Part shown: piece by piece, positions 19,875 to 32,481 of the stretch
Numbering within the stretch: the first letter of the stretch is position 1
Layout of the letters: each line of letters opens with the position of its first letter
Assembly: GCA_016214995.1 (NCBI GenBank)
Contig: JACRML010000031.1
Coordinates: 6,453 to 70,452 of the forward strand
Length of the DNA: 64,000 nucleotides
Direction of reading: 5' to 3'
Origin: Deltaproteobacteria bacterium
GTDB taxonomy: Bacteria; Desulfobacterota; GWC2-55-46; UBA9637
Made by a program: the position numbers and the translations under genes
The notes under the pieces: model-generated
The model's input: the letters and a program-made list of their open reading frames with translations, nothing else
What the model was told of the DNA's origin: nothing
Database searches by the model: none

Positions 19875-21563
19875 TGTGAGGGGGAAAGGGGGTTTTGTTA
19901 CATTTCGCAACTCTACGGAAATACTAAAGGCCTTAAAACAGACCAGTTAAGAAGACTACAGCATATTTACCGCCGCCGTATTCCACCCAACCTGTTCATT
20001 ACTCCGGAATTAGGAAGATACCTTACAGAACTTTCCAGAGACATAGGCAGACAAATAGGTGTTATCGTTAATCGTCAGGGTTTTGTTGTCTGTGCCATTA
20101 TCGGCGATGAAAAAGAGATTGTCATCCCTATTCTTTCTGATTATCCGCTTGGCAGAAAGCGCCTCAGGGGCGTGCGCTGCATACACACGCATCTCAAAAA
20201 TGAACCTTTAAGCCAGGATGACCTTACAGACCTTGCCTTGCTGAGGCTGGATATGATGGCTGCCATCGGTGTTCTGGAAGACGGCCTGCCAGGCAATATT
20301 TATATGTCTCATCTTTTGCCGTTAAACCCTGAAGGCAAAACCTTTGAAACTCATCCGGCGATGCCGTTTCACAGGCTGGATTTAAAAGCAGACGAGTTTG
20401 TTGAGGCTCTGGAAGATGAGATGGGCAGGGCCATAGTAAGGGATGTCCAAGATAAAAGGGAAAGGGCAATCCTTGTAAGCGTATCAACAAAAAACAATAG
20501 AAGAGAAGAACAAATAGAATCCATGGAAGAACTTAAAGAACTGGCGCGCTCCGCAGATGTAGTTGTGCTGGATGCAATCATACAGAGGCCAAAGGAGTTT
20601 AACCCGAAATACCTCATGGGCAGCGGAAAACTGAAAGAGCTTGTCATAAATGCCCTTCAAAAAGAGGCAACCCTCATCATATTTGACCAAGAACTTACCT
20701 CTACGCAAATGCGCGAGATAGGCGAGATTACAGAGTTAAAGGTAATTGACAGGGCGCAGCTTATCCTTGACATATTTGCCAGAAGGGCGTTTTCTCGGGA
20801 CGGCAAGGTGCAGGTGGAACTGGCTCAGTTGAAATACCGTTTTTCAAAATTGACCGGCAAAGGCACTGCCATGTCAAGGCTTGCAGGCGGCATAGGCGGA
20901 AGGGGGCCGGGTGAGACGAAGCTGGAGGTTGACAGGCGCCGGGTGCAGGATAAAATCAGCCATCTTGAAAAACAGCTCAAACATTTAAGCAGGGGCAGAC
21001 TTGAGAGAAGGCGAAGCAGAAGAGACAGCGGTGTTCCCATAATATCCGTTGTTGGTTACACAAATGCAGGCAAATCCACGCTCCTCAATGCGCTCACAAA
21101 AAGCGAGACAAAGGTGGAAAACCTACTTTTTGCAACACTTGATACTGCCTCCAGAAGATTAAGATTTCCAAGAGAGAGGGATGCAGTTATTACAGATACA
21201 GTGGGTTTTATACGGCATCTGCCCGAAGACCTGCTCAAGGCATTCAAGGCAACGCTTGAGGAGATGCAGGATGCTGATTTGCTTATACACCTCGTTGATG
21301 TGAGCAATCCCAATTTTGAAAAACAGATGAAGGTAGTGGAAGATGTGTTGAGCGAGATAGGGCTTGACGCCATAGAAAGGCTTCTTGTGTTTAATAAAGA
21401 GGATAGGGCCGACCCTGAGATAGTTAAAAACCTTTGCAGACGATATAATGCAATATCTATTTCAGCTATATACACTGATACATTGAGGAAGCTGTTGGGT
21501 GTGCTTGAACAAAAGCTTTGGCCGAAAGATAGTGCAGAAACAATGGTTGCCAGCTTGGAATGA
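19875..21563 (+). CDS. hflX: GTPase HflX (long form)
   Basis: G domain VVGYTNAGKSTLLNAL, DTVGFI, NKED. HflX N-domain GKVQVELAQLKY, GPGETKLE. An open in-frame extension runs up to GTG 19875. The ORF track starts at GTG 20172. Confidence 0.8.
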   Translation, partial: CEGERGFCYISQLYGNTKGLKTDQLRRLQHIYRRRIPPNLFITPELGRYLTELSRDIGRQIGVIVNRQGFVVCAIIGDEKEIVIPILSDYPLGRKRLRGVRCIHTHLKNEPLSQDDLTDLALLRLDMMAAIGVLEDGLPGNIYMSHLLPLNPEGKTFETHPAMPFHRLDLKADEFVEALEDEMGRAIVRDVQDKRERAILVSVSTKNNRREEQIESMEELKELARSADVVVLDAIIQRPKEFNPKYLMGSGKLKELVINALQKEATLIIFDQELTSTQMREIGEITELKVIDRAQLILDIFARRAFSRDGKVQVELAQLKYRFSKLTGKGTAMSRLAGGIGGRGPGETKLEVDRRRVQDKISHLEKQLKHLSRGRLERRRSRRDSGVPIISVVGYTNAGKSTLLNALTKSETKVENLLFATLDTASRRLRFPRERDAVITDTVGFIRHLPEDLLKAFKATLEEMQDADLLIHLVDVSNPNFEKQMKVVEDVLSEIGLDAIERLLVFNKEDRADPEIVKNLCRRYNAISISAIYTDTLRKLLGVLEQKLWPKDSAETMVASLE

Positions 21564-21623
21564 TATATCTTGAACAAAGGGGTCTATTGTTTAAGGAGTA
21601 TCTGCTATTTCAACATATACCGA

Positions 21624-22373
21624 TTATGTTTTGCATGCCTTATGAAATGCCACTGTTCCGCCCAAAATGGAGCGGCCAATGATATTGGAATAACCCAGCT
21701 CCAACAGCACGTGGGAGAGCTCCTCTGTAGAGTAAAACATGCGGATAGACTGGATAAAGTAGGGCTGACATTTCAAAGATGTTGACCCACTACGGAAAGC
21801 CCTGGCAATAAGGGGCAAACAGGCCTTCAAGTAAAGGCAGTAAATTTCTTCTATAAATTTGTTTGCCGGTCTTAACATATCGCAGTGGTAAAAATAGCCG
21901 CCGGGTTTAAGCACCCGTTTGATTTCAGAGAATACCTTTATAACACGCAAATGCCGTGTCGCCCATTGTAGCGTCACAACGTCAAAATAATTGTCGGGAA
22001 ACGGCAAATGATGCACATCACTGATTAGACCGTTGATATGAAAGCCATGACGTTGGGCAAGGTTTCTGCCGACTTTCTGCATTGCAATACTTCTGTCCAC
22101 TGCATAAACAGTTAGATTTTGCTGTTTTTTTAAAAGCTTAATGCCAATGGCATTAGTACCGGCGCATACATCCAGAACCTTGTAATCGGGCTTAATATCA
22201 ATGGTGGAGATAAAGCGGCTGCGCAAGCTGTTCATAAGACCCAGGCTGGCGAAAATGTTTGCTCGGTCGTAATAAGCTGCAACATCGGAAAACACTGCGT
22301 CAAGGTCGTTATTCCAAATAGACTCAAACGCCTTTTTGCGTGCGTTTTCTTTCTCCATATAACTGCAATTCAT
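21624..22373 (-). CDS. Class I SAM-dependent methyltransferase, UbiE/MenG-like
   Basis: 249 aa. VAAYYDRANIFASLGL..., SAM motif VLDVCAGTNAIG, post-I D (AVDRS). Confidence 0.7.
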   Translation of the reverse strand: MNCSYMEKENARKKAFESIWNNDLDAVFSDVAAYYDRANIFASLGLMNSLRSRFISTIDIKPDYKVLDVCAGTNAIGIKLLKKQQNLTVYAVDRSIAMQKVGRNLAQRHGFHINGLISDVHHLPFPDNYFDVVTLQWATRHLRVIKVFSEIKRVLKPGGYFYHCDMLRPANKFIEEIYCLYLKACLPLIARAFRSGSTSLKCQPYFIQSIRMFYSTEELSHVLLELGYSNIIGRSILGGTVAFHKACKT

Positions 22374-22487
22374 ACTGATTCCTTTTCCAGCCAGAGAATT
22401 GGCATATATTATTTCCTTTTGGCTAACAAATTATTATACGGTTTCTGTGTAATATCAGAGCCAAATCATAAAGTCAAGGCGTTATAA

Positions 22488-22670
22488 CGTAAAATAGCGA
22501 TTGAAACACTCGCTATTTTACAAACCTGCGATTTGCCTGCCATACTTCGTTATCGGTCAATTTTTACTCCTCACCGTATCGGTGAACATACGGCTCGTCT
22601 CAAAAATTGGCGCTGCCTCGTCTGGCAGCCAACTTGCAGGTTTCCCCAAAAATCAATATCTATTTTTGGG
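22488..22670 (-). repeat. Family A repeat, copy A2
   Basis: Reverse orientation of A1. Lacks the cccctctcgagagggg module. Confidence 0.85.
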
Positions 22671-22987
22671 ACTGTAATACAAGAGTGGCAGATATTGTAG
22701 AATTTATATCTATTATTTCATGGTAGCATTATTTTATGAGTGATAGACAGAATTGTAGGATGGACTATGCCCACCATCTCTGGCTTCGGTTGGCGCAATC
22801 CATCCTACGGCTATGACAAATAAGGGATAGCCCCCCCCTTCTTCACACCGGCACCATTTTAGTACTCATTGAAGAAATTGTCGAATTCGATTTCAACAGC
22901 ACTATGGTGCCGACCCCCGGTCTGCGTTACCGCTGAAAAATAATCCAGCCTGCCAAACCTACTGTTGTAATAATATCAAACAATCTC

Positions 22988-23016
22988 TTGACAGATAATC
23001 ATACCTATGATAGATT
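22988..23016 (+). promoter_or_regulatory. Candidate sigma70 promoter of the XRE-DUF4065 operon
   Basis: TTGACA (22988-22993), 17-nt spacer, TAGATT (23011-23016). GGGGAGGG SD before ATG 23041. Confidence 0.4.
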
Positions 23017-23040
23017 AATGTTATTAAGGGGAGGGCTGCG

Positions 23041-23829
23041 ATGAGCATATACGAAAAAATAGGGTGTCGGATTAAAATGCTTAGGGAAAAGACCGGCATG
23101 AGCCAGGATATGCTGTCACAGAAGATTGGAATATCACGGCCTGCTGTTTCCAAAATAGAGAGCGGTGAGCGGAAAATCTCCGCATACGAGTTGCAAAAGC
23201 TTTCTCATATTTTCCATGTTTCAGTGGACGATTTGTTGAATCCGGTAAAAGAGCCGGAGGTTCATTTGCATAAAGGCAAGGAAGGGAAAACAGCCAGGCC
23301 GCAAATGCGGATTAGCGTGCCGCAGAAGAATCTCCAGAAATTCAAGGAAATTCTGTTGTACATTTTGAATAAGGTCGGGGCCAAAGAGAACATCGGCGAA
23401 ACTGTCATCTATAAACTCCTCTATTTCATAGACTTTGACTTCTATGAAAAATATGAGGAGCAACTGATCGGCGCAACATACATCAAAAACAAATACGGCC
23501 CCACGCCTGTCGAGTTTGCCAAAATCGTAGAGAAAATGATTGAAGGCAAAGAGATAGAGAAGGTCAAAAGCGAATATTTCAATTTTCCGCAGACCAAGTA
23601 TTTGCCTTGTCGGAAGCCTGACCTGGCGAAATTGAAGGCGAACGAGATTGAGGTGATAGACGATGTCCTGAACCGGCTTTCGGAGATGAATGCGAGTCAG
23701 ATAAGCGCCTATTCCCATAGCGATGTTCCATGGGTGACAACGGCGGATGGCGAGGCTATCGAATACGAATCGGTCTTTTACCGCACTTTGCCCTATTCTG
23801 TGCGGGCATATGCGGAAGAGAACGGATGA
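23041..23829 (+). CDS. XRE-family HTH fused to a DUF4065 (SocA/Panacea-type) antitoxin domain
   Basis: N-terminus LREKTGMSQDMLSQKIGISRPAVSKIESGERK. C-terminus KLLYFIDFDFYEKYEEQLIGATYIKNKYGPTP... Confidence 0.75.
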   Translation: MSIYEKIGCRIKMLREKTGMSQDMLSQKIGISRPAVSKIESGERKISAYELQKLSHIFHVSVDDLLNPVKEPEVHLHKGKEGKTARPQMRISVPQKNLQKFKEILLYILNKVGAKENIGETVIYKLLYFIDFDFYEKYEEQLIGATYIKNKYGPTPVEFAKIVEKMIEGKEIEKVKSEYFNFPQTKYLPCRKPDLAKLKANEIEVIDDVLNRLSEMNASQISAYSHSDVPWVTTADGEAIEYESVFYRTLPYSVRAYAEENG

Positions 23830-24074
23830 GTGAGCCATTCTACAGTCCATTCGTTAGGACGCTGTTCAAGAAGATATCTCATGCCCCGGAATTTGAAAAA
23901 GACATGAAGAGGCTTAAGCGATTCTCATCGATAGAAGAGGATTTGCGGTGGAAGGGGATAGATTCAGCAGGGATGGGGAAGGGTAAAGGGGTTGGGGTTG
24001 CGAGGGGGAGGGGAATAGATCAGGCTCGTATTTTCTGTTTTAGCTATAGAATAAGTTGGTACTTTGATATATAG
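23826..24074 (+). pseudogene. Truncated RelE/ParE-like toxin, 3' part replaced by repeat R3a
   Basis: ATGA overlap with the upstream antitoxin. The first 37 or so codons (..FEKDMKRLKRFSSIEEDL) resemble RelE/ParE N-termini. From about 23953 the frame reads through G-rich repeat sequence (GMGKGKGVGVARGRG). Confidence 0.5.
23953..24014 (+). repeat. G-rich post-toxin repeat R3, partial copy R3a
   Basis: Matches the 3' half of R3b and R3c: cagcaggga.ggggaagggtaaaggggttg.ggttgcgaggg. Confidence 0.8.
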
Positions 24075-24080
24075 TGAAAG

Positions 24081-24161
24081 CAATAAATAACTTGTAGGGC
24101 AAGCCTTCAGGCTTGCTTATTTGCAGGGCTAAAGCCCTGCCCTACACCAAGTTATTTATTG
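24081..24161. other. 81-nt three-way-junction palindrome
   Basis: Perfect 14-bp outer stem caataaataacttg/caagttatttattg. 6-bp tagggc/gcccta stem. Two inner hairpins, aagcc..ggctt and cagggc..gccctg. Confidence 0.7.
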
Positions 24162-24209
24162 CCGTTAGTATAGAATAGAGAAAAAATTAATAATGTAGGG
24201 GGGATTTAT

Positions 24210-24395
24210 ATGAGAACCGCGGCACAAAAAGTTAATCCAGAGGATTTTATCCTTTCTGCCCTTTCTCCAGAGGATCGGCTCGATGCGGCATTTGAGGTCG
24301 CTCGTGAGGCGTTCAAAAAGACACGCTTGACAATGAAAGATATTGACAATGCGGTTAAATCGGTAAGGAGAAAGGCTTACGAAAAGAAGAAATAA
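24210..24395 (+). CDS. Small putative antitoxin of the downstream PIN toxin
   Basis: 61 aa. No family firmly recognised. Position and size fit a type II antitoxin. Confidence 0.5.
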   Translation: MRTAAQKVNPEDFILSALSPEDRLDAAFEVAREAFKKTRLTMKDIDNAVKSVRRKAYEKKK

Positions 24396-24414
24396 AGTAG
24401 TCATAGACACAAGC

Positions 24415-24801
24415 GTGCTTATTTCTGCCTACGCCTTTGGTGGAACACCGGAGAAGGCTGTAAAGAAGGCGTTCTCAGAGGCAGACATATATTTAACCCC
24501 CGACCTTTTAAAGGAATACCGTGATGTCCCTTTGGCGCTTGAGGCAGAGGGAAAGATTAACCACCTGCAATTTAAGACCTTGATTTCAGGGATGGCAGCC
24601 GTTGTATCAAGAGCCGAGATTGTAAATCCAAAAAGAAAAATCCTGATATGTAGAGACCCGAAGGACGATATGTTGCTTGACTGTTGCATTGAAGCAAAGG
24701 CAGATTTTCTTGTCACAGGCGATGCTGACCTTCTTAATATCGCAGAATTGCCGTTTAATTTAAGGATAGTAACTCCACTCAAATTTCTCGAAGAAGGGTA
24801 G
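24415..24801 (+). CDS. PIN-family toxin (PIN_3/TIGR00305-like)
   Basis: DPKDDMLLDCCIEAKADFLVTGDADLL is the typical C-terminal PIN_3 motif. The conserved VVIDTSV segment is encoded in frame upstream of the first canonical start (GTG 24415). Confidence 0.75.
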   Translation: MLISAYAFGGTPEKAVKKAFSEADIYLTPDLLKEYRDVPLALEAEGKINHLQFKTLISGMAAVVSRAEIVNPKRKILICRDPKDDMLLDCCIEAKADFLVTGDADLLNIAELPFNLRIVTPLKFLEEG

Positions 24802-24814
24802 TCTATTCCCACCG

Positions 24815-24948
24815 GATGTAAAAACGATGAATGAAGAGGGCAATCGTAGGGTGGGCATTGCCCACCGGATGAGGAAGATAGAAGGGCTGATGGAGAGGTT
24901 CAGCAGGGACGGTGAAGGGTAAAGGGGTTGTGATTGCAAGAGGTGGGG
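24815..24948 (+). repeat. G-rich post-toxin repeat R3b
   Basis: Roughly 85 percent identical by eye to R3c over about 135 bp. Contains the ggtgggcattgcccacc palindrome and a G-run tract. Starts about 13 nt after the PIN stop. Confidence 0.85.
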
Positions 24949-24996
24949 AAATAAATGAGTCCGCTTCTTCAAAAAAAAGCTAAGTGGAGGTATTTG

Positions 24997-25266
24997 ATGA
25001 AAATAGTAAGCGAACACATAGACAAGATTGTAGCAATCGGCAAGCGGTATGGCGCTACCCGTCTGATATTGTTCGGGGGAGTGGTCGCAAGATCGGAAAA
25101 TACAAGAGATATTGATATAGCATGCGATGGCATCCCAGGCTGGAAGCTTTATGAATTTGCAGCAAGACTTGAAGAGGAGCTGCATATTCCTCTCGATGTA
25201 ATGCCGCTCAGCCCTCCGAGTCGTTTTACAAAATACATTGAGATGAAAGGCAAGGCGCTCATATGA
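24997..25266 (+). CDS. Nucleotidyltransferase-domain antitoxin (MntA-like)
   Basis: LILFGGVVARSENTRDIDIA (GG..x..DxD NTase signature). GGAGG lies 6 nt upstream of ATG 24997. ATGA overlap with the HEPN gene. Confidence 0.75.
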   Translation: MKIVSEHIDKIVAIGKRYGATRLILFGGVVARSENTRDIDIACDGIPGWKLYEFAARLEEELHIPLDVMPLSPPSRFTKYIEMKGKALI

Positions 25267-25736
25267 ATCTGAAAGACCTTTGCGAGGAAATTGCCATTGA
25301 GATTGAGCTTCTCGAATCCGTCATCAAAGAAATATCTTCCCTGCGCAACGACTTAACGGAGCGTGAGCCAACTATCAGGGAAAAAACAGCCGCAGGCGCC
25401 TTTATGGCACAATTTTACGGAGGGATTGAAAACATTTTGAAACGGATCAGCTTGTTCCACTCTGTTCCAATGCCTTCCGGCGACAACTGGCACACAGATC
25501 TTTTCCGAAGATTTTGCCAACCATCTTACCAAACCCTGCCTCTATTATTTAAGGAACAACTGGCCTTAGACATGGCCGCATTTCGTAAATTCAGGCATGT
25601 TGTTTATCACGGCTACGGTTTTGAACTTGACTGGGACAGGATGAAAGAAGGGTTGGCAAGAATTGATGATGTATTTAACCGTTTTAAACAGAAACTTAAC
25701 GAATATCTAAATGGGTTAGAAAAACAGAATAAATAG
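25263..25736 (+). CDS. HEPN-domain toxin (HepT-like)
   Basis: 157 aa. Rx4-6H motif in FRKFRHVVYHGYG. Paired with the MNT gene. Confidence 0.7.
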   Translation: MNLKDLCEEIAIEIELLESVIKEISSLRNDLTEREPTIREKTAAGAFMAQFYGGIENILKRISLFHSVPMPSGDNWHTDLFRRFCQPSYQTLPLLFKEQLALDMAAFRKFRHVVYHGYGFELDWDRMKEGLARIDDVFNRFKQKLNEYLNGLEKQNK

Positions 25737-25748
25737 CCGATACCGTCA

Positions 25749-25890
25749 AATGCGGAAACGATGATGGAAGAGGGCAAAAAGTTGTAGGGTGGGCTATGCC
25801 CACAGGATGAGAGAGATAGAAGGGCTGAGGGGAGAGGTTCCGCAGGGACGGGGAAGGGTAAGGGGGTTGGGATTGCGAGGGTGGAGGGGG
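25749..25890 (+). repeat. G-rich post-toxin repeat R3c
   Basis: Homologous to R3b. Starts about 13 nt after the HEPN stop. G-runs ggggaagggtaagggggttgggattgcgagggtggaggggg. Confidence 0.85.
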
Positions 25891-26017
25891 ATTTTATAAT
25901 TTCATACATGGATAAACGAGGCGACTAATGCAAATTTGAAGGTGATTGAAAGACTGATAAAACACTCATCAAAGCAATGAGATAAAGGCTGCAATAGCTA
26001 TTGTTTTAATATAAAAT

Positions 26018-29000
26018 ATGCCTGAACAAATGGATACTACCTGCAAAAAACCTCAGCCTGCTTTACTTGAAGATGTCTGGATAACATCAGGCATTTTTTC
26101 AAACCATTATCTATTAGAACGTCTGCCGCAGGCTGGAGCAAAAATCTGGCATAAAGATGAGGATGTACTGCCAGTATATAAAACCATTCAGGAATTATAC
26201 ACGAAAAATATTGTAGGTTTGAGAAGAGGTAATGAGGCAAATACCGAAAGGCGATTTATTGATAAGGTTTTTAATGAATTGGGTTTTGGCTATCTTAATC
26301 AGGATAAAATACCTGAAGCAGAGCGCAGACAGGTGCCTGATTACTTTCTTTACTCTACCCCCGAAGGTGCAGACAATGCCTTCAAACTCTCTCCGCATAA
26401 AAAATACAAACTTGCAATCTCAATTGTAGAATCAAAACGGTGGGATCATAATTTAGACCAGCCGTCATCAGGCAAGGGCAAGGCAACTAAAGGCGGGTAT
26501 CCGCATCAGCAGATAAGGGATTATCTAAACGAATCCGAACACATAAAATGGGGAATCCTTACCAATGGCAAGGAGTGGAGGCTCTATTCCAAAGAGGGGC
26601 GGTCAAGCAAATTTTTTGAGATAGACCTTGAGGCATGTCTTGAAGACCTTCAGAAGTTCAAATATTTCTATCTCCTTTTCAGCCCAAATGCCTTCATAAA
26701 GGAAAGTTCCGGCAGATGTCTCCTTGACAATATTTTTGACGAATCACTTAAGTTTCAGGAAGATGTTGAAAAAGACCTAAGAGTAAAGGTCTTTAACTGT
26801 GTTGAACGGCTTGGGTACGGCTTCCTGTCCAGAGAGGAAAACCGTTTATCTGAAAAAGACCTTGAATCAATATACTATCACAGCCTTATCCTTTTATATA
26901 GAATACTCTTTGTGCTTAATGCAGAGGCAAGAGACCTCCTTCCAACTAACCCACAAACAAATTACTACAAGCATTACGGCATCCAGAGGATAAAGGATAG
27001 GGTTAGGCATGGGAAAGGAGAATTTATAAGTGCCAAAACAGTTTTGTATGATGATTTATCAGCCCTTTTTCATCTGATAAACGGCAGCAATGAAAAACTC
27101 AATAGAGATATGAACATACCAAGATATAACGGCGGTCTTTTTGACCCTGATAAATATAAATTCCTTGAAGAAAAGAAGGCAGGAGACGATGTTCTTTCAG
27201 AGATAATTTATGAACTCTCCAACCGCACTGATAAAAATGGAGATGTCCATAGCATTGACTACAAAGGGCTTGGAGAGAGACATCTTGGAACAGTTTATGA
27301 AGGTTTGCTTGAACATAAGTTTAGTTTCGATAATGGTAAAGTAGTTCTTGAAAATGACAAAGGCGAACGAAAGGCTACAGGGGCATACTATACACCTGAC
27401 CATATTGTTAAGTATATCGTTGAAAATACGCTAGTGCCAATTATAAAGAAAATTGATGAAGAACTTTACCCCACTTTGAAAAAGGGGGGCGTGGGGGGAT
27501 TTTCAAAAGACGACTTTTTTGCCCAGGAAGTGCTGAACCTTAATATCTGCGACCCTGCGATGGGTTCAGGGCATTTCCTTGTCGAGGCTGTTCAATATCT
27601 TGCTGATGAGATTGCCTATCATCCCACAACACAGTTAAAGACGTCAAAAGGCGAAACAGAAGATGAAATTAACTATTGGAAGCGTAAGGTTGTAGAGTCC
27701 TGCATTTATGGAGTTGACATAAAAGAACTTGCAGTTGAACTTGCAAAACTCTCCTTATGGCTTAAGACAGTTGACAAAAGCCAGCCGCTAAATTTCTTAG
27801 ACCATCATCTCAGATGCGGCAATTCGCTTATCGGCGCAAGGATAGCCGACTTAAATTATCTGCCGCGGTCAAAGGGAAAGCAGAAAAAGACAGAGGAGAA
27901 TGAAAGCCAGTTGGTGCTTTTTGATAGAACCCGATTTAAAGAAGACATTACAACAGTAATAAAAGGATTTTATTCAATAGAAGAAATGCCGAGCGAAAAA
28001 ATTTCGGATATAAAGGCAAAGGAAAAGACATTCAAAAAATTGACCGAAGAACTGAATAGATACAGAGAAATTACAGACCTCTGGACAAGTTTGTTTTTTG
28101 GAAACAGCCTTGAACAAGAACAAGAGGCATTTGAAAACATTATACAAGAGCAGGATAAATTCCAGATGGATATATTCGGCTCAGAAACTAAAATCTCCCC
28201 CAAAAAGAAGTCCAAGGCAGGCATATCCAACCAGATTTACAATTTTATAGTTAGTTCACTACAAAGTCCTAACGGCAAAACCCAAGTTCCAAAACTTGAC
28301 TTGCTTCTTGGGAAGTCTGTATCCATTGCAAGGGAAAAGAAATTCTTTCACTGGGAACTTGCATTTCCTGAAGTATTCTTCAATGAAGACGGAAGTCCAA
28401 AAGAGAATCCGGGGTTTGATTGCGTAATAGGAAATCCGCCGTATGATGTTTTATCAGAACTTGAGCAGGAGAGGGATGTAGAGCATGAGAAAGAATTTTT
28501 CTTGCATCAGATGTCGTATAGACCTGCCATTGGCAGCAAACTTAATTTTTATCGCCTCTTTAGTGTCACATCTTTAAATTTACTCAAAAGCAAAGGTATG
28601 CATGGTTTTATCGTTCCTATGGCTTTATTAGCAGATAAACAAGCAAAGCCCTTGAGAGAATTTATACTTAAAAAGAACTGCCTGCAAAAGATAGAAGCAT
28701 TTCCCCAAAAAGATGACCCTGTAAACAGGGTATTTTATGAGGCAAAGTTATCAACCTGCATATATATCCTTTCTAAGCAAAAGCCATTTTCGTTTGATGT
28801 TAGAATCCATCCCGGAAAAGACATCTTGGAAACCTCTACTCGTTTAACCATAATGCCATCTCAAATTGAAGAATTTGACAAAGAAAATTTAAGTATTCCA
28901 TGTTATCCAAATATGACCGCAGAGGATTTTAAACTTGCCTTGAAATTAAACGAAGTTTCTAACGGAATTACACTCGGATACTTTGCGCCATCACAGCAGG

Positions 29001-29959
29001 GCGAGGTTAATCTTACAGCACACTCTGAATATTTGACAAATTCAGAAAAAGGACAAATTATTTTACGAGGTGCTCATATAAATCGTTATGAGTTTAAGGA
29101 AGAACCAAAACAAGGGAGTCCGATGTATCTTGATATTCAGCGATTCCTTGATGCACATGGAGAAGATACAAAAGCATTTGACCACAGGCACATACGCATC
29201 GGTTATCAAAGAGGGGCAGCAATAGACAATTGGCGCAGAATTATTGCAACTGTCATAGAAAAAGATAATTTCTGCTCCGATACAATCAACTATATTGTCA
29301 ATCCTAAAGAATATAGTCTGTTTTCCATTCTTGCATTATTAAATTCATCGCTATGGGAGTGGAGATTCAGGCTTACAAGCACAAACAATCATGTAAATTC
29401 TTATGAAATAGACTCAATGCCAATGCCAGTTATCTCCTTCACCACTCCCCCCAAAAGGGCGGAAGAATTTTTTAAGGATGCTGTTGAACTGTATGATGAT
29501 TCAAAATATGTTGATATTTTCAAATGGGCGGATTATGCATTGGATTTGGGCAGGAATGATACCATTCACGACTTCCTTGCCTATCTTGCAGAGCAGATAA
29601 TTGAGTTAAACAAGGCGAAGAATGAAGAGAGCAAAGGCTTTCTCAAATGGCTTGAAAGGGAAATCGGTACAGGAATTGATGCCTTAACAAACAAAACTGC
29701 AATCAAAGAATATCACGAACACGGCTTTGATCATCTCCTTGAAGTCCTCAAAAAGAACATAAACATAATCTCAATTGACCCTTCAGACCGAAAGAAACAG
29801 GAACTCGTTGAAAAGCATTTCACAAAAAGCATGTCAGTCCTTGAGCCTCTGAAAGAAAAAATTAAGGCGGCCGATAATCTGATAGACCAGATTATTTATA
29901 AGTTGTATGGATTGACGGAGGAGGAGATTGAGATTGTGGAGGGGAAAGTGACTTTATGA
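26018..29959 (+). CDS. Type IIG/IIL-like fused restriction endonuclease and N6-adenine DNA methyltransferase (Eco57I family)
   Basis: 1313 aa. N-terminal PD-ExK (VPDYFLY...IVESKRW), GAYYTPDHIV, SAM motif I DPAMGSGHFLVEA, motif IV GNPPY. TaqI-C-like TRD (LLNSSLWEWRF). C-terminal YKLYGLTEEEIEIVEG. Confidence 0.85.
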   Translation: MPEQMDTTCKKPQPALLEDVWITSGIFSNHYLLERLPQAGAKIWHKDEDVLPVYKTIQELYTKNIVGLRRGNEANTERRFIDKVFNELGFGYLNQDKIPEAERRQVPDYFLYSTPEGADNAFKLSPHKKYKLAISIVESKRWDHNLDQPSSGKGKATKGGYPHQQIRDYLNESEHIKWGILTNGKEWRLYSKEGRSSKFFEIDLEACLEDLQKFKYFYLLFSPNAFIKESSGRCLLDNIFDESLKFQEDVEKDLRVKVFNCVERLGYGFLSREENRLSEKDLESIYYHSLILLYRILFVLNAEARDLLPTNPQTNYYKHYGIQRIKDRVRHGKGEFISAKTVLYDDLSALFHLINGSNEKLNRDMNIPRYNGGLFDPDKYKFLEEKKAGDDVLSEIIYELSNRTDKNGDVHSIDYKGLGERHLGTVYEGLLEHKFSFDNGKVVLENDKGERKATGAYYTPDHIVKYIVENTLVPIIKKIDEELYPTLKKGGVGGFSKDDFFAQEVLNLNICDPAMGSGHFLVEAVQYLADEIAYHPTTQLKTSKGETEDEINYWKRKVVESCIYGVDIKELAVELAKLSLWLKTVDKSQPLNFLDHHLRCGNSLIGARIADLNYLPRSKGKQKKTEENESQLVLFDRTRFKEDITTVIKGFYSIEEMPSEKISDIKAKEKTFKKLTEELNRYREITDLWTSLFFGNSLEQEQEAFENIIQEQDKFQMDIFGSETKISPKKKSKAGISNQIYNFIVSSLQSPNGKTQVPKLDLLLGKSVSIAREKKFFHWELAFPEVFFNEDGSPKENPGFDCVIGNPPYDVLSELEQERDVEHEKEFFLHQMSYRPAIGSKLNFYRLFSVTSLNLLKSKGMHGFIVPMALLADKQAKPLREFILKKNCLQKIEAFPQKDDPVNRVFYEAKLSTCIYILSKQKPFSFDVRIHPGKDILETSTRLTIMPSQIEEFDKENLSIPCYPNMTAEDFKLALKLNEVSNGITLGYFAPSQQGEVNLTAHSEYLTNSEKGQIILRGAHINRYEFKEEPKQGSPMYLDIQRFLDAHGEDTKAFDHRHIRIGYQRGAAIDNWRRIIATVIEKDNFCSDTINYIVNPKEYSLFSILALLNSSLWEWRFRLTSTNNHVNSYEIDSMPMPVISFTTPPKRAEEFFKDAVELYDDSKYVDIFKWADYALDLGRNDTIHDFLAYLAEQIIELNKAKNEESKGFLKWLEREIGTGIDALTNKTAIKEYHEHGFDHLLEVLKKNINIISIDPSDRKKQELVEKHFTKSMSVLEPLKEKIKAADNLIDQIIYKLYGLTEEEIEIVEGKVTL

Positions 29960-32481
29960 ATTTTGAACGACCGCAACCCTTACATAAAAATATTGAAGTC
30001 AAAGCAACCAATAGGCCCATTAAAATTGCTTACCTTGTTCCATATGAAGAAAGTATAACTACACATAGGATACTTGATGCGGTTTTCCATGAATCATATA
30101 CCCGCTGGGGTGGTGTTCATACATTAATTATTCCTACTAATAGCAACAGTTTTTTGTTGGAAGAATACGATAAGTGGCTGCAATTTTATGACCCTGATTT
30201 TATTTATACATATGTTGATTTAGAACAGTCAGTGATTGCAAAAATAGATCACGCTTGTTGTCCTATCGCATTCATAAGTCACAAAAAATCAGAAATAACC
30301 CGATGGCAGGATTACATACCCGACTGGGGGGTATATTTCAAATCGATTTCATCGCTAACAACAATACATAGCCCATATGCTGGTTATCGTAGCCTACTAC
30401 CGTGGACTGAAAAAGAACAGAAAATAACACTTATTACCCAATACAAAGAAATTTCTGAAGAGCGTTTTATCGCTGATAACTTTGGAACTGCCTTTAATTT
30501 ACATATGTATCCTAACCCTATACAAGGGCTTTTTGATACTCTCTGTTTAGTGCCAAATGATTTGGGTAAGCATATGCATGTAGGTACTACAAAAACCACC
30601 TCAATTATAGATATACTTTCTCAAATAAGCGGCAAAAAAGCTATTATGATTGCAAAACTATCAATGGCTTACAGCAAATCTATATGCTGTGTGCAATCTT
30701 ATAGGTGGGATAGTTTCAACCTCTTTGTTGGAGATACTTGTCTTGATCGAATTCATTTCTGGAATGCAAGAAGTTTTTCTCCGGATTATATCAACGTGCC
30801 AGCCGCACTTATTGTAAAAAAGATACAGATAGAAGAATCAGATTTTATTACTCAGCTAGGCTTGTATCTAAATAGTCATAATTTTTTAGGGCAACATACT
30901 GGCCAGGCTTCAGTAGCAATAAGGAGCTTTAGCCACAACATTGAAGAACTCAAGCCGATACAAGAGAGATTACAAAAATGCACCTTCAATCGTGTGATTT
31001 TAACAAATGAATATAATAACCCTGCAATTCCATCTACCGACGATTTCAAACACTATTATCATAGTGGGTCTGCAGATGTAACGACATTTAAGTTAAGCGA
31101 AACTATTAATAAAATACAGGCGAAGGAGCCCGAACATTTTGCGTTCACTCCACCACGATTTAGAGGAATAAATGAAGGTCAGTGGATTGTCGAGCTTGAA
31201 ATTGAACGCCACAATAGCCTTTCTCGTGTTGTCAATGTTGCTGATACTTGGATGCCGCCACGGCGTCATAAAGCAGTAAGAGCATTTACTAAAAATTTGG
31301 GGAGGATTTCAAAAAACCATAGAATTTCTCTTATACCATCAACAGATAACCATCCATTATTGAGTAGCCCAATTAAAAAGGACTACTCATACTCCCTCTT
31401 TTTGCCGGATGATGAAACTTTTTTTCGATGGTTCGCCATCGATGCGGTTAATTATCTAAAAGAAGATTTACGGTCTTCACTTTCCTATGACCTATACAAT
31501 GGTTTGTCTGTCTCCGATAAAGGGCAAAATTTAAGAGGTGTAATTTCTATGTTTGGCAATCTTTCTGATGCATCTGAATGCTTGACCAATAAGTTTTGGC
31601 GTCAGATTATAAGAGCAAACAAGAGCAAGGTGGATGATGAAAAAGATGCCCAAAGACCAGATAATATTTTCAGTTGGGATAAATTGTTCTCTTTTATACC
31701 AAATGACCATAAATTTAAAGAGCAGCTACGGAAAAAATTACGCATTGGAAACAGGTTTAAAATACATGATTACTTGGTTGCAGACTTCAATGACGCGTTG
31801 GAATTTCTGATTAACAAAAAAGTTTTCTATCAGGTGCATCAGTGGAGGTGTTCATATTGCGGGCATACAAATACGCTTACCTTTGATCATATTAAAAGAA
31901 CAAATAATTGTGAGATTTGTGATAAGGAATATTTTGCACCGATTGATATTGAGTGGAAGTATAAACTTAATGACTTTGTATATAAATCATTATGTGAGCG
32001 TAACGGACTGACTGTTTTGTGGGCGTTGGGTCATTTACAAGAACGGGATGTGCATAGCAGTTTTTATTACCTTCCAGAAGTTAATTTGTTTTTAGAACAT
32101 AATAATTCAGAGAAAAAGCATGAAATAGATATTTTATGCATGATAGGTGGAAAGTTTTATGCTGTAGAAGCTAAATTTAGTTCAACCGGTTTTACTAAGA
32201 AACATGATGAGATTGAAAAGTTCATTAAGAAAATCTCATTAATCAGACCCGATGTCGCTCTATTAGCATTTGAACAGTATTGTGAACCTGAAGCTGATAC
32301 GGAGTCTGCCAAGAAGGATTTGAAAGGAGTGGTTGCAGATATATCTCAGAAAATAGGGGAGCAAATAAAAATTGAAACGGTAGTTGCATCTGATTTCGAA
32401 GAATTTAATGAGTATCCTGTTGATTTAGGTTGTTGGGGCAAACGTGTTTTAAAGATGCTTTATAAACTCGACAGCAAATAA
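29956..32481 (+). CDS. Uncharacterised 841-aa protein with a C-terminal zinc ribbon and PD-(D/E)xK-like nuclease signature
   Basis: ATGA overlap with the methyltransferase stop. CSYC-x16-CEIC at aa 632-655. HEIDILCMIGGKFYAVEAK at aa 722-740 (E-x-D...E-x-K). No Walker A or other motif recognised in aa 1-630. Confidence 0.8.
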   Translation: MNFERPQPLHKNIEVKATNRPIKIAYLVPYEESITTHRILDAVFHESYTRWGGVHTLIIPTNSNSFLLEEYDKWLQFYDPDFIYTYVDLEQSVIAKIDHACCPIAFISHKKSEITRWQDYIPDWGVYFKSISSLTTIHSPYAGYRSLLPWTEKEQKITLITQYKEISEERFIADNFGTAFNLHMYPNPIQGLFDTLCLVPNDLGKHMHVGTTKTTSIIDILSQISGKKAIMIAKLSMAYSKSICCVQSYRWDSFNLFVGDTCLDRIHFWNARSFSPDYINVPAALIVKKIQIEESDFITQLGLYLNSHNFLGQHTGQASVAIRSFSHNIEELKPIQERLQKCTFNRVILTNEYNNPAIPSTDDFKHYYHSGSADVTTFKLSETINKIQAKEPEHFAFTPPRFRGINEGQWIVELEIERHNSLSRVVNVADTWMPPRRHKAVRAFTKNLGRISKNHRISLIPSTDNHPLLSSPIKKDYSYSLFLPDDETFFRWFAIDAVNYLKEDLRSSLSYDLYNGLSVSDKGQNLRGVISMFGNLSDASECLTNKFWRQIIRANKSKVDDEKDAQRPDNIFSWDKLFSFIPNDHKFKEQLRKKLRIGNRFKIHDYLVADFNDALEFLINKKVFYQVHQWRCSYCGHTNTLTFDHIKRTNNCEICDKEYFAPIDIEWKYKLNDFVYKSLCERNGLTVLWALGHLQERDVHSSFYYLPEVNLFLEHNNSEKKHEIDILCMIGGKFYAVEAKFSSTGFTKKHDEIEKFIKKISLIRPDVALLAFEQYCEPEADTESAKKDLKGVVADISQKIGEQIKIETVVASDFEEFNEYPVDLGCWGKRVLKMLYKLDSK

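What the first reader, a model, noticed from the sequence alone, without database searches (positions are those of the whole stretch)
23953..25890. Each of three toxin genes is followed by a copy of the same G-rich repeat (cassette-like punctuation)
R3b (24815-24948) and R3c (25749-25890) are about 135-140 bp and roughly 85 percent identical by eye. Each begins about 13 nt after a toxin stop codon (PIN and HEPN). The 3' half recurs as R3a (23953-24014), fused in frame to the broken RelE-like toxin. The repeats contain a ggtgggca(t/ta)tgcccac palindrome and then 5-6 closely spaced G-runs on the coding strand. They do not fit the attC consensus, having no RYYYAAC/GTTRRRY ends. Even so, the arrangement of one module followed by one repeat resembles integron or gene-cassette organisation. 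It could mark a recombination-based cassette system, a shared 3' UTR element, or a terminator/insulator.
Basis: seen in the sequence. Interest (0 to 1): 0.6.

Follow-up and report, generated by a model that had tools for sequence, protein, structure and literature searches.

The report
Junction repeat of a toxin-antitoxin cassette array
A G-rich DNA repeat of about 115-140 bases separates small toxin-antitoxin gene modules in a few related groundwater bacteria, and recombination between its copies adds or removes single modules, which resembles an integron without integron-type sites.

Summary
R3b and R3c are 84.6% identical over 130 nt. R3a is the 3' half of the same element.

Each R3 consists of:
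- an optional 5' extension;
- one REP-type palindrome (GTAG head), which belongs to a family dispersed through the genome;
- a purine-rich core of about 95 nt that has no conserved base-paired fold.

The core is not dispersed. In the window's own 1.98-Mb genome it occurs only at this locus. Among 96 genomes of the class it occurs only in 6-7 genomes of one order. There it almost always forms one small cluster per genome, in the same orientation as the genes, between toxin-antitoxin or abortive-infection modules.

Two near-identical strains differ by exactly one module plus one R3, and the single R3 is a hybrid of the two flanking copies. Halves of R3 copies are mosaics, and truncated copies sit at deletion junctions; R3a is one of these.

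The core diverges at the same rate as four-fold degenerate sites (0.180 against 0.175). A sequence-specific RNA or protein-binding role is therefore unlikely.

R3 has no attC features, no terminator and no Rfam match. The genome has integron integrases, but they are unlinked to the array.

Best reading: R3 is portable homology that builds and erodes a cassette array by recombination. This is a new variant of a known kind, of moderate interest.

The parts
22755..22808 (+). REPIN-like inverted pair of REP elements at the left edge of the island
   Evidence: listed as C81:29206
23041..23829 (+). Module 1 antitoxin: XRE helix-turn-helix plus SocA/Panacea domain (262 aa)
   Evidence: PF13274 E 2.7e-19, PF01381 E 6.6e-16
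23826..24074 (+). Remnant of the module 1 toxin. About 41 native codons remain (to about 23948), then the frame reads through R3a. The full-length protein has 132 aa in relatives G007 and G004.
   Evidence: No family hit
23953..24021 (+). R3a: 3' part of the R3 core only (model positions 19-93). It is a deletion product that joins the toxin gene to mid-R3.
   Evidence: 47.3 bits; comparison with G004 and G007
24022..24071 (+). Leader and promoter region of module 2 (TTTTAGCTATAGAATAAG..TTTGATATA), shared with G007, G002 and G004. It continues at 24173, after the inserted palindrome.
24072..24172 (.). REPIN-like palindromic insertion of 101 nt (two inverted GTAG-headed REPs inside an AT-rich outer stem). 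It is absent from the orthologous leader in G007.
24210..24395 (+). Module 2 antitoxin (61 aa, no family hit)
24397..24801 (+). Module 2 PIN_3 toxin. The ORF from GTG begins at 24415, and the conserved N-terminal strand lies upstream of any ATG, GTG or TTG.
   Evidence: TIGR00305 E 2.6e-13
24810..24845 (+). R3b 5' extension: a diverged duplicate of the REP 3' arm plus the first 30 nt of the core
   Evidence: (family D2)
24846..24866 (+). R3b REP singlet (GTAGGGTGGGCATTGCCCACC)
24865..24956 (+). R3b purine-rich core
   Evidence: 78.2 bits, C81:31317-31408
24997..25266 (+). Module 3 minimal nucleotidyltransferase-like antitoxin (an alternative start is at 24955). It has no Pfam hit of its own. 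Its counterpart in the E14 bin (L014) is 92% identical in amino acids.
25263..25736 (+). Module 3 HEPN toxin (HepT-like_2)
   Evidence: E 1.9e-23
25749..25783 (+). R3c 5' extension
25784..25804 (+). R3c REP singlet
25803..25893 (+). R3c purine-rich core
   Evidence: 74.5 bits, C81:32255-32345
25873..25900 (+). Sigma-70-like promoter match (TTGCGA, 16-nt spacer, TATAAT) formed by the R3c 3' end and its flank. The same flank follows the R3 copy in G010.
26018..29959 (+). Type IIG restriction-modification gene that follows the array

Best explanation
R3 is the junction repeat of a toxin-antitoxin/defence cassette array that is built and eroded by recombination. Each unit is a REP-type hairpin plus a purine-rich core of about 95 nt. 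It lies as a direct repeat, in the same orientation as the genes, between small self-contained modules that carry their own promoter-like leaders.

Because the copies are direct repeats, a crossover between two of them removes the intervening module, presumably as a circle carrying one hybrid R3. The reverse crossover, between an R3 on an incoming circle or fragment and a resident R3, inserts a module flanked by two hybrid copies.

What is shown:
- R3 is confined to these arrays.
- Near-identical strains differ by one module plus one R3, with a hybrid R3 at the junction.
- R3 copies are mosaics.
- Truncated R3 copies lie at deletion junctions. R3a is one of them: a deletion ran from codon ~41 of the module 1 toxin into mid-R3.
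- The core evolves at the neutral rate.

What is inferred:
- The crossovers are made by general (RecA-type) homologous recombination and not by a dedicated recombinase.
- Modules move between genomes as R3-bearing circles or fragments.
- The G-richness is inherited from the founder copy and is not itself selected.
For: **1. R3 is confined to the arrays.**
- In the window's own assembly the core occurs only at this locus, 3 copies.
- Among 96 genomes of the class it is found in G000, G002, G004, G006, G007 and G010, with relics in G005. It forms one main cluster per genome; G002 also has a relic at a second locus.
- Scans of public genomes and metagenomes added only loci of the same lineage.
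- There is no match in the plasmid or phage collections.

**2. Array content and orientation.**
- All 18 or more copies have the same orientation as both neighbouring genes.
- The modules between them are PIN with various antitoxins, HepT/MNT, AbiEii, TumE, AbiU2 and Panacea modules.

**3. A direct recombination event.**
- L012 (the G010 genome) and metagenome contig L020 are 99.96% identical over 9,563 nt and 99.6% over 736 nt.
- L020 has one extra unit of about 1,062 nt: the AbiEii module plus one R3.
- The single R3 of L012 equals the left part of the L020 upstream copy plus the right part of its downstream copy. The switch lies within a 43-nt stretch that is identical in both copies.

**4. 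Mosaic copies.**
- The left and right halves of R3 copies have different nearest relatives. For example, R3c is 93% identical on the left to G004 copy 4 and 88% on the right to the G010 copy. The G010 copy is 97% identical on the left to R3b and 88% on the right to R3c.

**5. Rearrangement junctions inside R3.**
- R3a in the window.
- G002 copy 1, where the 5' part is fused to the next leader.
- The central part of one copy in L023 is replaced by unrelated sequence.

**6. A Campbell-type footprint elsewhere.**
- In G005 a toxin-antitoxin module with R3 relics on both sides sits in the 3' end of mutS. It is flanked by a 174-nt direct duplication of mutS at 96% identity.

**7. Neutral rate.**
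- The core differs at 99 of 551 sites (0.180) between copies next to the same module in different genomes.
- Four-fold degenerate sites of those modules differ at 73 of 418 (0.175), Fisher p = 0.87, with a similar transition/transversion ratio.

**8. The same modules occur with different neighbours, and the arrays lie at different chromosomal sites.**
- Between fixC and fixX, which overlap in the empty site of G000.
- After a uspA-like gene, after a PAS kinase and after a PilZ gene.
Against: - Only one clean with/without polymorphism was found, and its direction (insertion or deletion) is unknown.
- Copies within one array are only 75-88% identical, with short runs of perfect identity. Present-day homologous recombination between many pairs would therefore be inefficient.
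- Homology alone does not explain why the founder sequence is so G-rich.
- It also does not explain why the 3' boundary (…GGGGAATAAATCAG) is fairly uniform in front of different modules.
- Integron integrases are present in 4 of the 6 R3-bearing genomes, so a recombinase-assisted process is not excluded.
- The neutral-rate test rests on about 550 sites and on the choice of 'orthologous' copies.
Confidence: 0.55

Rival explanations
1. R3 is the recombination site of a dedicated site-specific recombinase. It would be an attC analogue used by the genome's integron integrases or by another enzyme, making the array a cluster of sites without a neighbouring integrase.
For: - The window's genome encodes two integron integrases (TIGR02249, 422 and 364 bits against a cut-off of 265).
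- Integrases over the cut-off occur in 4 of the 6 R3-bearing genomes but in only 1 of 7 R3-free genomes of the order.
- The units are of cassette size, share one orientation, and follow the pattern of one module then one site.
- Several rearrangement junctions fall in the same central stretch of R3 (…GAAGGGCTG.GGGAGAGGTTCMGCAGGGAYGGTGAAGG).
Against: - There are no RYYYAAC/GTTRRRY boxes and no extended imperfect palindrome.
- The integrases lie on other contigs.
- G002 is 100% complete and has 3 or more R3 copies but no integron integrase.
- Junction positions are scattered over more than 60 nt and do not fall at one point.
- The core evolves at the neutral rate.
- A crude scan found no attC-like arrays anywhere in the genome.
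Confidence: 0.12
2. R3 is a functional transcript element that travels with the modules. The REP hairpin would protect the upstream toxin mRNA from 3' exonucleases. The purine-rich tract would act as an insulator in one of two ways: G-quadruplex or R-loop formation on the sense strand, or a C-rich, G-poor Rho-loading site on antisense RNA.
For: - R3 always has the same orientation as the genes and starts 12-13 nt after the stop codons.
- REP hairpins are thought to play roles in mRNA stabilisation and transcription termination (PMC3733652 abstract).
- R3a and R3c are the two top G4Hunter windows in the genome.
- The core is 47% G and 9% C, so the antisense RNA would be C-rich and unstructured.
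- The R3c 3' end contributes a -35 box to a good promoter match.
Against: - The core evolves at the neutral rate.
- The four-run G motif is lost in R3b and in several relatives, while the best-conserved block (CAGGGAYGGTGAAGGRTAAAGGG) is not the G-run part.
- There is no hairpin followed by a T-run at any R3 and no conserved fold.
- About 11 other PIN loci of the genome lack R3.
- This reading does not explain the hybrid copies or the cassette gain/loss variant.
Confidence: 0.15
3. R3 is a small non-autonomous mobile element. It would be a REP-associated passenger mobilised by one of the genome's many Y1 (RAYT/IS200-type) transposases, and it would insert next to toxin-antitoxin modules.
For: - R3 begins with a GTAG-headed REP.
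- The genome has 12 Y1_Tnp matches over the cut-off and more than 30 REP/REPIN loci.
- The R3 core is present after the toxin gene in G004 but absent at the same spot in G007, next to what looks like a decayed REP arm.
- REP and core can each be lost separately (G002 copy 1).
Against: - The core is never found away from the arrays.
- It has no terminal inverted repeats, no second hairpin and no target duplication.
- Other REP copies carry no R3-like tail.
Confidence: 0.1

Closest known systems
Integron cassette arrays and clusters of attC sites lacking an integrase (CALINs)
   Same: - Arrays of small genes in one orientation, often toxin-antitoxin genes.
- Each module is followed by one repeat of about 60-140 nt whose copies are similar within an array.
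- Cassettes are gained and lost singly.
- The arrays can lie far from any integrase.
   Different: - R3 has no R''/R' boxes, no folded imperfect palindrome and no fixed crossover point.
- R3 is purine-rich on one strand.
- The modules carry their own promoter-like leaders.
- R3 persists in a complete genome that has no integron integrase.
REP / REPIN elements with RAYT transposases (GTAG-tagged palindromic repeats; PMC3733652, PMC3116915, PMC8266576)
   Same: The palindrome inside R3 is a member of such a family. It has a GTAG head and an 8-bp GC-rich stem, it is dispersed in the genome mostly as inverted doublets, and Y1 transposase genes are present.
   Different: - The G-rich core, which makes up most of R3, is not part of that family and is not dispersed.
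- In R3 the REP is a single copy in a fixed orientation.
Tandem integrative islands separated by direct repeats of the attachment site, and Campbell-type insertion through shared homology
   Same: - Direct repeats flank each inserted unit.
- Hybrid repeats form at the junctions.
- A single unit can be lost by recombination between the repeats.
- A 174-nt target duplication flanks one module in a relative.
   Different: - The units carry no integrase.
- The repeat is not part of a tRNA or protein gene.
- The units are only about 0.8-1.6 kb.
Minimal mobile elements of Neisseria and similar exchange of cassettes by flanking homology (from my own knowledge, not checked in papers here)
   Same: Different small gene cassettes, often restriction or toxin genes, are exchanged between strains through conserved flanking sequence, without a dedicated recombinase.
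   Different: There the homology is provided by conserved flanking genes at one chromosomal site. Here it is a portable intergenic repeat that forms multi-cassette arrays at several sites.
pdif (Xer-dependent) modules of Acinetobacter plasmids (from my own knowledge)
   Same: Small modules, often toxin-antitoxin pairs, are bounded by short recombination sites and found in varied contexts.
   Different: pdif sites are 28 bp (11-6-11) and flank modules as inverted pairs. R3 copies are direct repeats of about 115-140 nt with no such architecture.

Membership tests
Integron attC site / cassette array | Inverse core and core sites (RYYYAAC at the 5' end, GTTRRRY at the 3' end) that pair with each other | tested here: not met
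   The alignments of all copies show no such boxes at the ends. The only GTT-purine stretch (GTTGGGA) is internal and has no complementary partner.
Integron attC site / cassette array | Imperfect palindrome that folds as a single strand into a long hairpin | tested here: not met
   The consensus fold of the core scores -0.74 kcal/mol with 6 pairs and no covariation. Single-sequence folds show only the REP hairpin in common, and R3c has z = -0.78.
Integron attC site / cassette array | Integron integrase next to the array (not required for integrase-less clusters) | tested here: not met
   Integrases lie on contigs C87 and C3, whereas the array is on C81. In G004, G007 and G010 they are also on other contigs. 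G002 has none.
Integron attC site / cassette array | One cassette followed by one site, all in one orientation | tested here: met
   Window. Relatives. One G004 interval holds two modules.
REP / REPIN family (palindrome part only) | GTAG head followed by a 20-40-nt GC-rich palindrome; many extragenic copies, often as inverted doublets; Y1 transposase present in the genome | tested here: met
   72 strand-specific matches at more than 30 loci, mostly doublets. 12 Y1_Tnp matches over the cut-off.
REP / REPIN family (whole R3) | The whole repeat unit is dispersed with the family | tested here: not met
   No other REP copy carries the G-rich tail.
MITE | Terminal inverted repeats, target-site duplication and dispersed copies | tested here: not met
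   No inverted repeats at the ends. Copies occur only within the arrays.
Intrinsic terminator | GC-rich hairpin directly followed by a T-run | tested here: not met
   None of the 6 terminator-like sites in 22300-26300 lies in an R3. The REP hairpin is followed by GGATGAGG.
G-quadruplex-forming sequence | Four or more runs of at least 3 G with loops of 1-7 nt; folding shown in vitro | tested here: inconclusive
   The motif is present in R3a and R3c and absent in R3b. It is not conserved in all relatives. Folding is not testable with these tools.
Any Rfam RNA family | Match to a covariance model | tested here: not met
   No match in R3 at E up to 5 in 20000-30000.
pdif / Xer modules | 28-bp XerC/XerD sites flanking each module as inverted pairs | tested here: not met
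   All R3 copies are direct repeats. The only palindrome has 8-bp arms with a 1-3-nt spacer.

The most novel reading that the evidence does not exclude
R3 arrays are an integron-like gene-capture system for toxin-antitoxin and defence modules. The system would use no attC hairpin and no linked integrase. Transcription through the G-rich non-template strand would form an R-loop or G-quadruplex that locally stimulates recombination between copies. That would be functionally comparable to immunoglobulin switch regions or to the G-quadruplex upstream of pilE in Neisseria. Alternatively, a still unidentified recombinase recognises the conserved central block of R3.
Probability: 0.15. Interest if true: 0.8.

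Novelty: new variant of a known kind. Interest (0 to 1): 0.5.

Why it matters
Defence and toxin-antitoxin genes cluster in islands that turn over quickly, and the mechanics of that turnover are known for only a few systems, such as integrons, Xer modules and integrative islands.

Here a short portable repeat, with no recognisable recombinase site, marks the boundaries of single modules. Near-identical strains can be seen to gain or lose exactly one module at that repeat.

If general recombination on about 100 nt of shared junction sequence is enough to assemble such arrays, similar 'soft' cassette systems may be common and overlooked. Integron-finding tools would miss them. The R3 consensus also gives a simple probe for following module exchange among uncultured groundwater bacteria.

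Tried and rejected
- **Rfam.** A permissive scan of 20000-30000 gave nothing in R3.
- **Consensus RNA structure of the core.** No conserved fold was found.
- **Small peptide.** A recurrent 17-codon frame (MRKIEGL..ERF.RDGEG) is open in about 5 of 16 copies. It is shifted or lacks ATG in the others, and it has no ribosome-binding site, so I rejected it (read).
- **Origin from mutL.** A 28-nt match inside the mutL gene of G035 is not shared by the mutL of G000. I treat it as chance.
- **Chance pattern hits.** The matches in an Acidobacteriaceae contig and a Jidaibacter contig do not extend beyond the 23-nt pattern.
- **attC.** A crude genome-wide scan for AAC…GTT hairpins gave 44 scattered hits, no arrays, and none near the integrase genes. 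The only hit inside the array is the REPIN-like insertion.
- **Plasmid and phage collections.** No match.
- **Naming the module 1 toxin.** No hit in Pfam, NCBIfam or PDB sequences.
- **Literature.** A search for repeat-bounded toxin-antitoxin cassette arrays returned only integron papers.
Full report
**Observation.**
- R3b and R3c align over 130 nt at 84.6% identity (E 2e-33). R3a matches the 3' half of both, at 87.7% and 80.9%.
- A 20-nt motif from the core occurs three times in the window, against 0.02 expected by chance.
- R3b begins 13 nt after the stop codon of a PIN_3 toxin. R3c begins 12 nt after the stop codon of a HepT-like HEPN toxin.
- R3a is read in frame from a short ORF whose start overlaps the stop of an XRE/Panacea antitoxin gene.
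- That ORF could not be named by Pfam, NCBIfam or PDB sequences. Intact 132-aa versions exist in two relatives, so it is a truncated partner gene.

**Anatomy.** Aligning 18 copies from ten loci shows three parts:
- An optional 5' extension of about 35 nt. It is a diverged duplicate of the next two parts' beginning (family D2).
- One GTAG-headed palindrome, GTAGGGTGGGCWWTGCCCACC.
- A core of about 95 nt: CCGGATGAGGAAGATAGAAGGGCTG.GGGAGAGGTTCCGCAGGGAYGGTGAAGGRTAAAGGGGTTGGGATTGCGAGGGGTGAGGGGAATAAATCAG. It is 47% G, 29% A and 9% C.

The palindrome is an ordinary REP element.
- The own genome has more than 30 loci of it, mostly as inverted doublets (REPINs), and none carries the G-rich tail.
- The genome has 12 Y1 transposase matches over the cut-off.
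- This fits the published description of GTAG-tagged REPs and REPINs (PMC3733652, PMC3116915).

The core has no conserved base-paired structure: the consensus energy is -0.74 kcal/mol, with no compensatory changes. It has no Rfam match.

**Distribution.**
- In the 1.98-Mb assembly that holds the window, the core occurs only at this locus.
- A sequence model of the core was searched in all 96 held genomes of the class. It hit only genomes of one order: G000, G002, G004, G006, G007 and G010, with degenerate relics in G005 and at a second site in G002.
- Exact-pattern scans of public genomes and metagenomes returned only contigs of the same groundwater 'Deltaproteobacteria' lineage, plus two chance hits.
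- Plasmid and phage collections gave nothing.
R3 is also not a general appendage of toxin genes, since about 11 other PIN loci of the same genome lack it.

**Context.** In every locus the copies lie as direct repeats, in the same orientation as the genes, between small modules.
- The modules are PIN toxins with at least four kinds of antitoxin, three kinds of HepT/MNT pairs, AbiEii with a 62-aa partner, TumE with a 91-aa partner, AbiU2, and the Panacea module.
- The same module appears with different neighbours in different genomes.
- The arrays lie at different chromosomal sites: after a uspA-like gene, after a PAS kinase, after a PilZ gene, and between fixC and fixX. In the window's own genome fixC and fixX overlap by ATGA, which marks the empty site.
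- The window and G007, a different genus, share the first two modules at 90-97% nucleotide identity, whereas a housekeeping protein is only 75% identical between G000 and a congener. The arrays therefore appear to move horizontally.

**Recombination at R3.** The clearest case is G010.
- Its genome contig (L012) and a metagenome contig (L020) are 99.96% identical over 9.6 kb and 99.6% over 0.7 kb.
- L020 has one extra unit of about 1.06 kb: the AbiEii module plus one R3.
- The single R3 of L012 follows the upstream copy of L020 on its left and the downstream copy on its right. The switch lies within 43 nt that are identical in both copies.
- This is the product expected from a crossover between direct repeats, in either direction.

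Further signs of recombination:
- The left and right halves of R3 copies have different nearest relatives. The G010 copy resembles R3b on the left (97%) and R3c on the right (88%, including the downstream flank).
- Variable positions occur in all four pairwise combinations (read).
- Truncated copies sit at rearrangement junctions. In G004 the intact toxin gene is followed by a full R3 and the same leader as in the window. In the window a deletion joins codon ~41 of the toxin to mid-R3. R3a is therefore a deletion scar and not an insertion.
- In G002 the 5' part of a copy is fused to that same leader.
- In G005 a module with R3 relics on both sides lies in the 3' end of mutS and is flanked by a 174-nt duplication of mutS. 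This is the footprint of a circle integrating through homology.

**Constraint.**
- Between copies adjacent to the same module in different genomes, the core differs at 99 of 551 sites (0.180).
- Four-fold degenerate sites of those modules differ at 73 of 418 sites (0.175), p = 0.87, with a similar transition/transversion ratio.
- On this timescale the core evolves like neutral DNA. That argues against a structured RNA, a set of protein-binding sites or a peptide. It suggests that R3 persists because of how the arrays are made and because they are young.

**Alternatives tested.**
- *Integron.* The genome does encode two integron integrases (TIGR02249, 422 and 364 bits), and such genes are more frequent in R3-bearing genomes (4 of 6 against 1 of 7). 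However, they are on other contigs, and the complete genome G002 has R3 but no integrase. R3 has neither the core sites nor the fold of attC, and junction positions are scattered.
- *Terminator.* No hairpin followed by a T-run occurs at any R3.
- *G-quadruplex.* R3a and R3c are the top two G4Hunter windows of the genome, but R3b and several relatives have lost the motif. The genome also has 88 canonical motifs, many of them in G-rich heptamer arrays.
- *Antisense Rho loading on the C-rich strand.* This is compatible with the composition but is untested.
- *Mobile element.* R3 has no terminal repeats, no target duplication and no dispersal.

**Model.** R3 acts as portable homology.
- A module flanked by two copies can loop out with one hybrid copy.
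- Such a circle, or a fragment taken up from a relative, can recombine with any resident R3 and extend the array.
- Deletions that start or end in R3 erode the array and often disable toxins. The toxin is truncated in the window, the PIN gene is lost in G002, and the PIN gene in G007 has an internal 88-nt deletion.
- The step from 'recombination between R3 copies' (shown) to 'RecA-type recombination, no dedicated enzyme' is inference.
- The reason for the G-richness of the founder copy is unexplained.

**Comparison and novelty.** The system works like an integron array or like tandem integrative islands, but it fails the defining tests of attC. Its palindrome is a REP, but the unit as a whole is not a REP, a MITE or a known RNA. 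I file it as a new variant of repeat-bounded gene-cassette arrays, restricted so far to one order of uncultured bacteria.

**Limits.**
- All genomes are fragmented metagenome bins.
- Only one clean polymorphism was found.
- Read data could not be consulted.
- No attC covariance model was available.

Noticed in passing
own genome outside the window: C87:18436-19716 and C3:35348-36685: Two integron integrase genes (TIGR02249, 422 and 364 bits). Each has an N-terminal extension of about 110-130 aa. A crude scan found no obvious attC array beside them.
   Followed up: partly
own genome, e.g. C64:12132-12645; window 22755-22808 and 56618-56642: A GTAG-headed REP/REPIN family at more than 30 loci, together with 12 Y1 (RAYT/IS200-type) transposase matches, in a 2-Mb genome. 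One transposase-like ORF lies among REP copies on C64.
   Followed up: partly
window 24072-24172: The elaborate palindrome between modules 1 and 2 is a 101-nt REPIN-like insertion into the leader of module 2. The orthologous leader in G007 is uninterrupted.
   Followed up: yes
window 24364-24417: The conserved first strand of the PIN toxin (KVVIDTSVLI) lies upstream of any ATG, GTG or TTG in its frame. The same holds in G007.
   Followed up: partly
L011:9118-9197 (G007): One R3 copy is split by an insertion of about 80 nt with perfect terminal inverted repeats (CCCCGTTAGAAGC…GCTTCTAACGGGG). It looks like a miniature hairpin element.
   Followed up: no
L033 (G005:C150:9694-11714): A toxin-antitoxin module (106 aa plus a 200-aa PIN-like protein) sits in the 3' end of mutS between two copies of the last 174 nt of mutS (96% identical). 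The downstream copy keeps the native overlap with the next gene.
   Followed up: partly
L010:8268-11085, L021, L024; empty site at own genome C90:30921-30927: The toxin-antitoxin array splits the overlapping fixC-fixX gene pair in three relatives. In G002 a sequence of about 10 nt (GATTCTWTGA) is present at both ends of the insertion. L024 has a different left junction at the same spot.
   Followed up: partly
L042 (G002:C56:68517-68571): An internally deleted R3 relic lies upstream of a TIR-like protein gene (identified from its N-terminal sequence only). It is followed by the same leader sequence that precedes an MNT module in the Hainich contig L021.
   Followed up: no
L011:9965-10045 and L010:8905-8990: Two R3 copies contain GCTGGTGG, the E. 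coli Chi octamer, at the position where other copies have GCTGAGGG or GCTGATGG. Its significance in this lineage is unknown.
   Followed up: no
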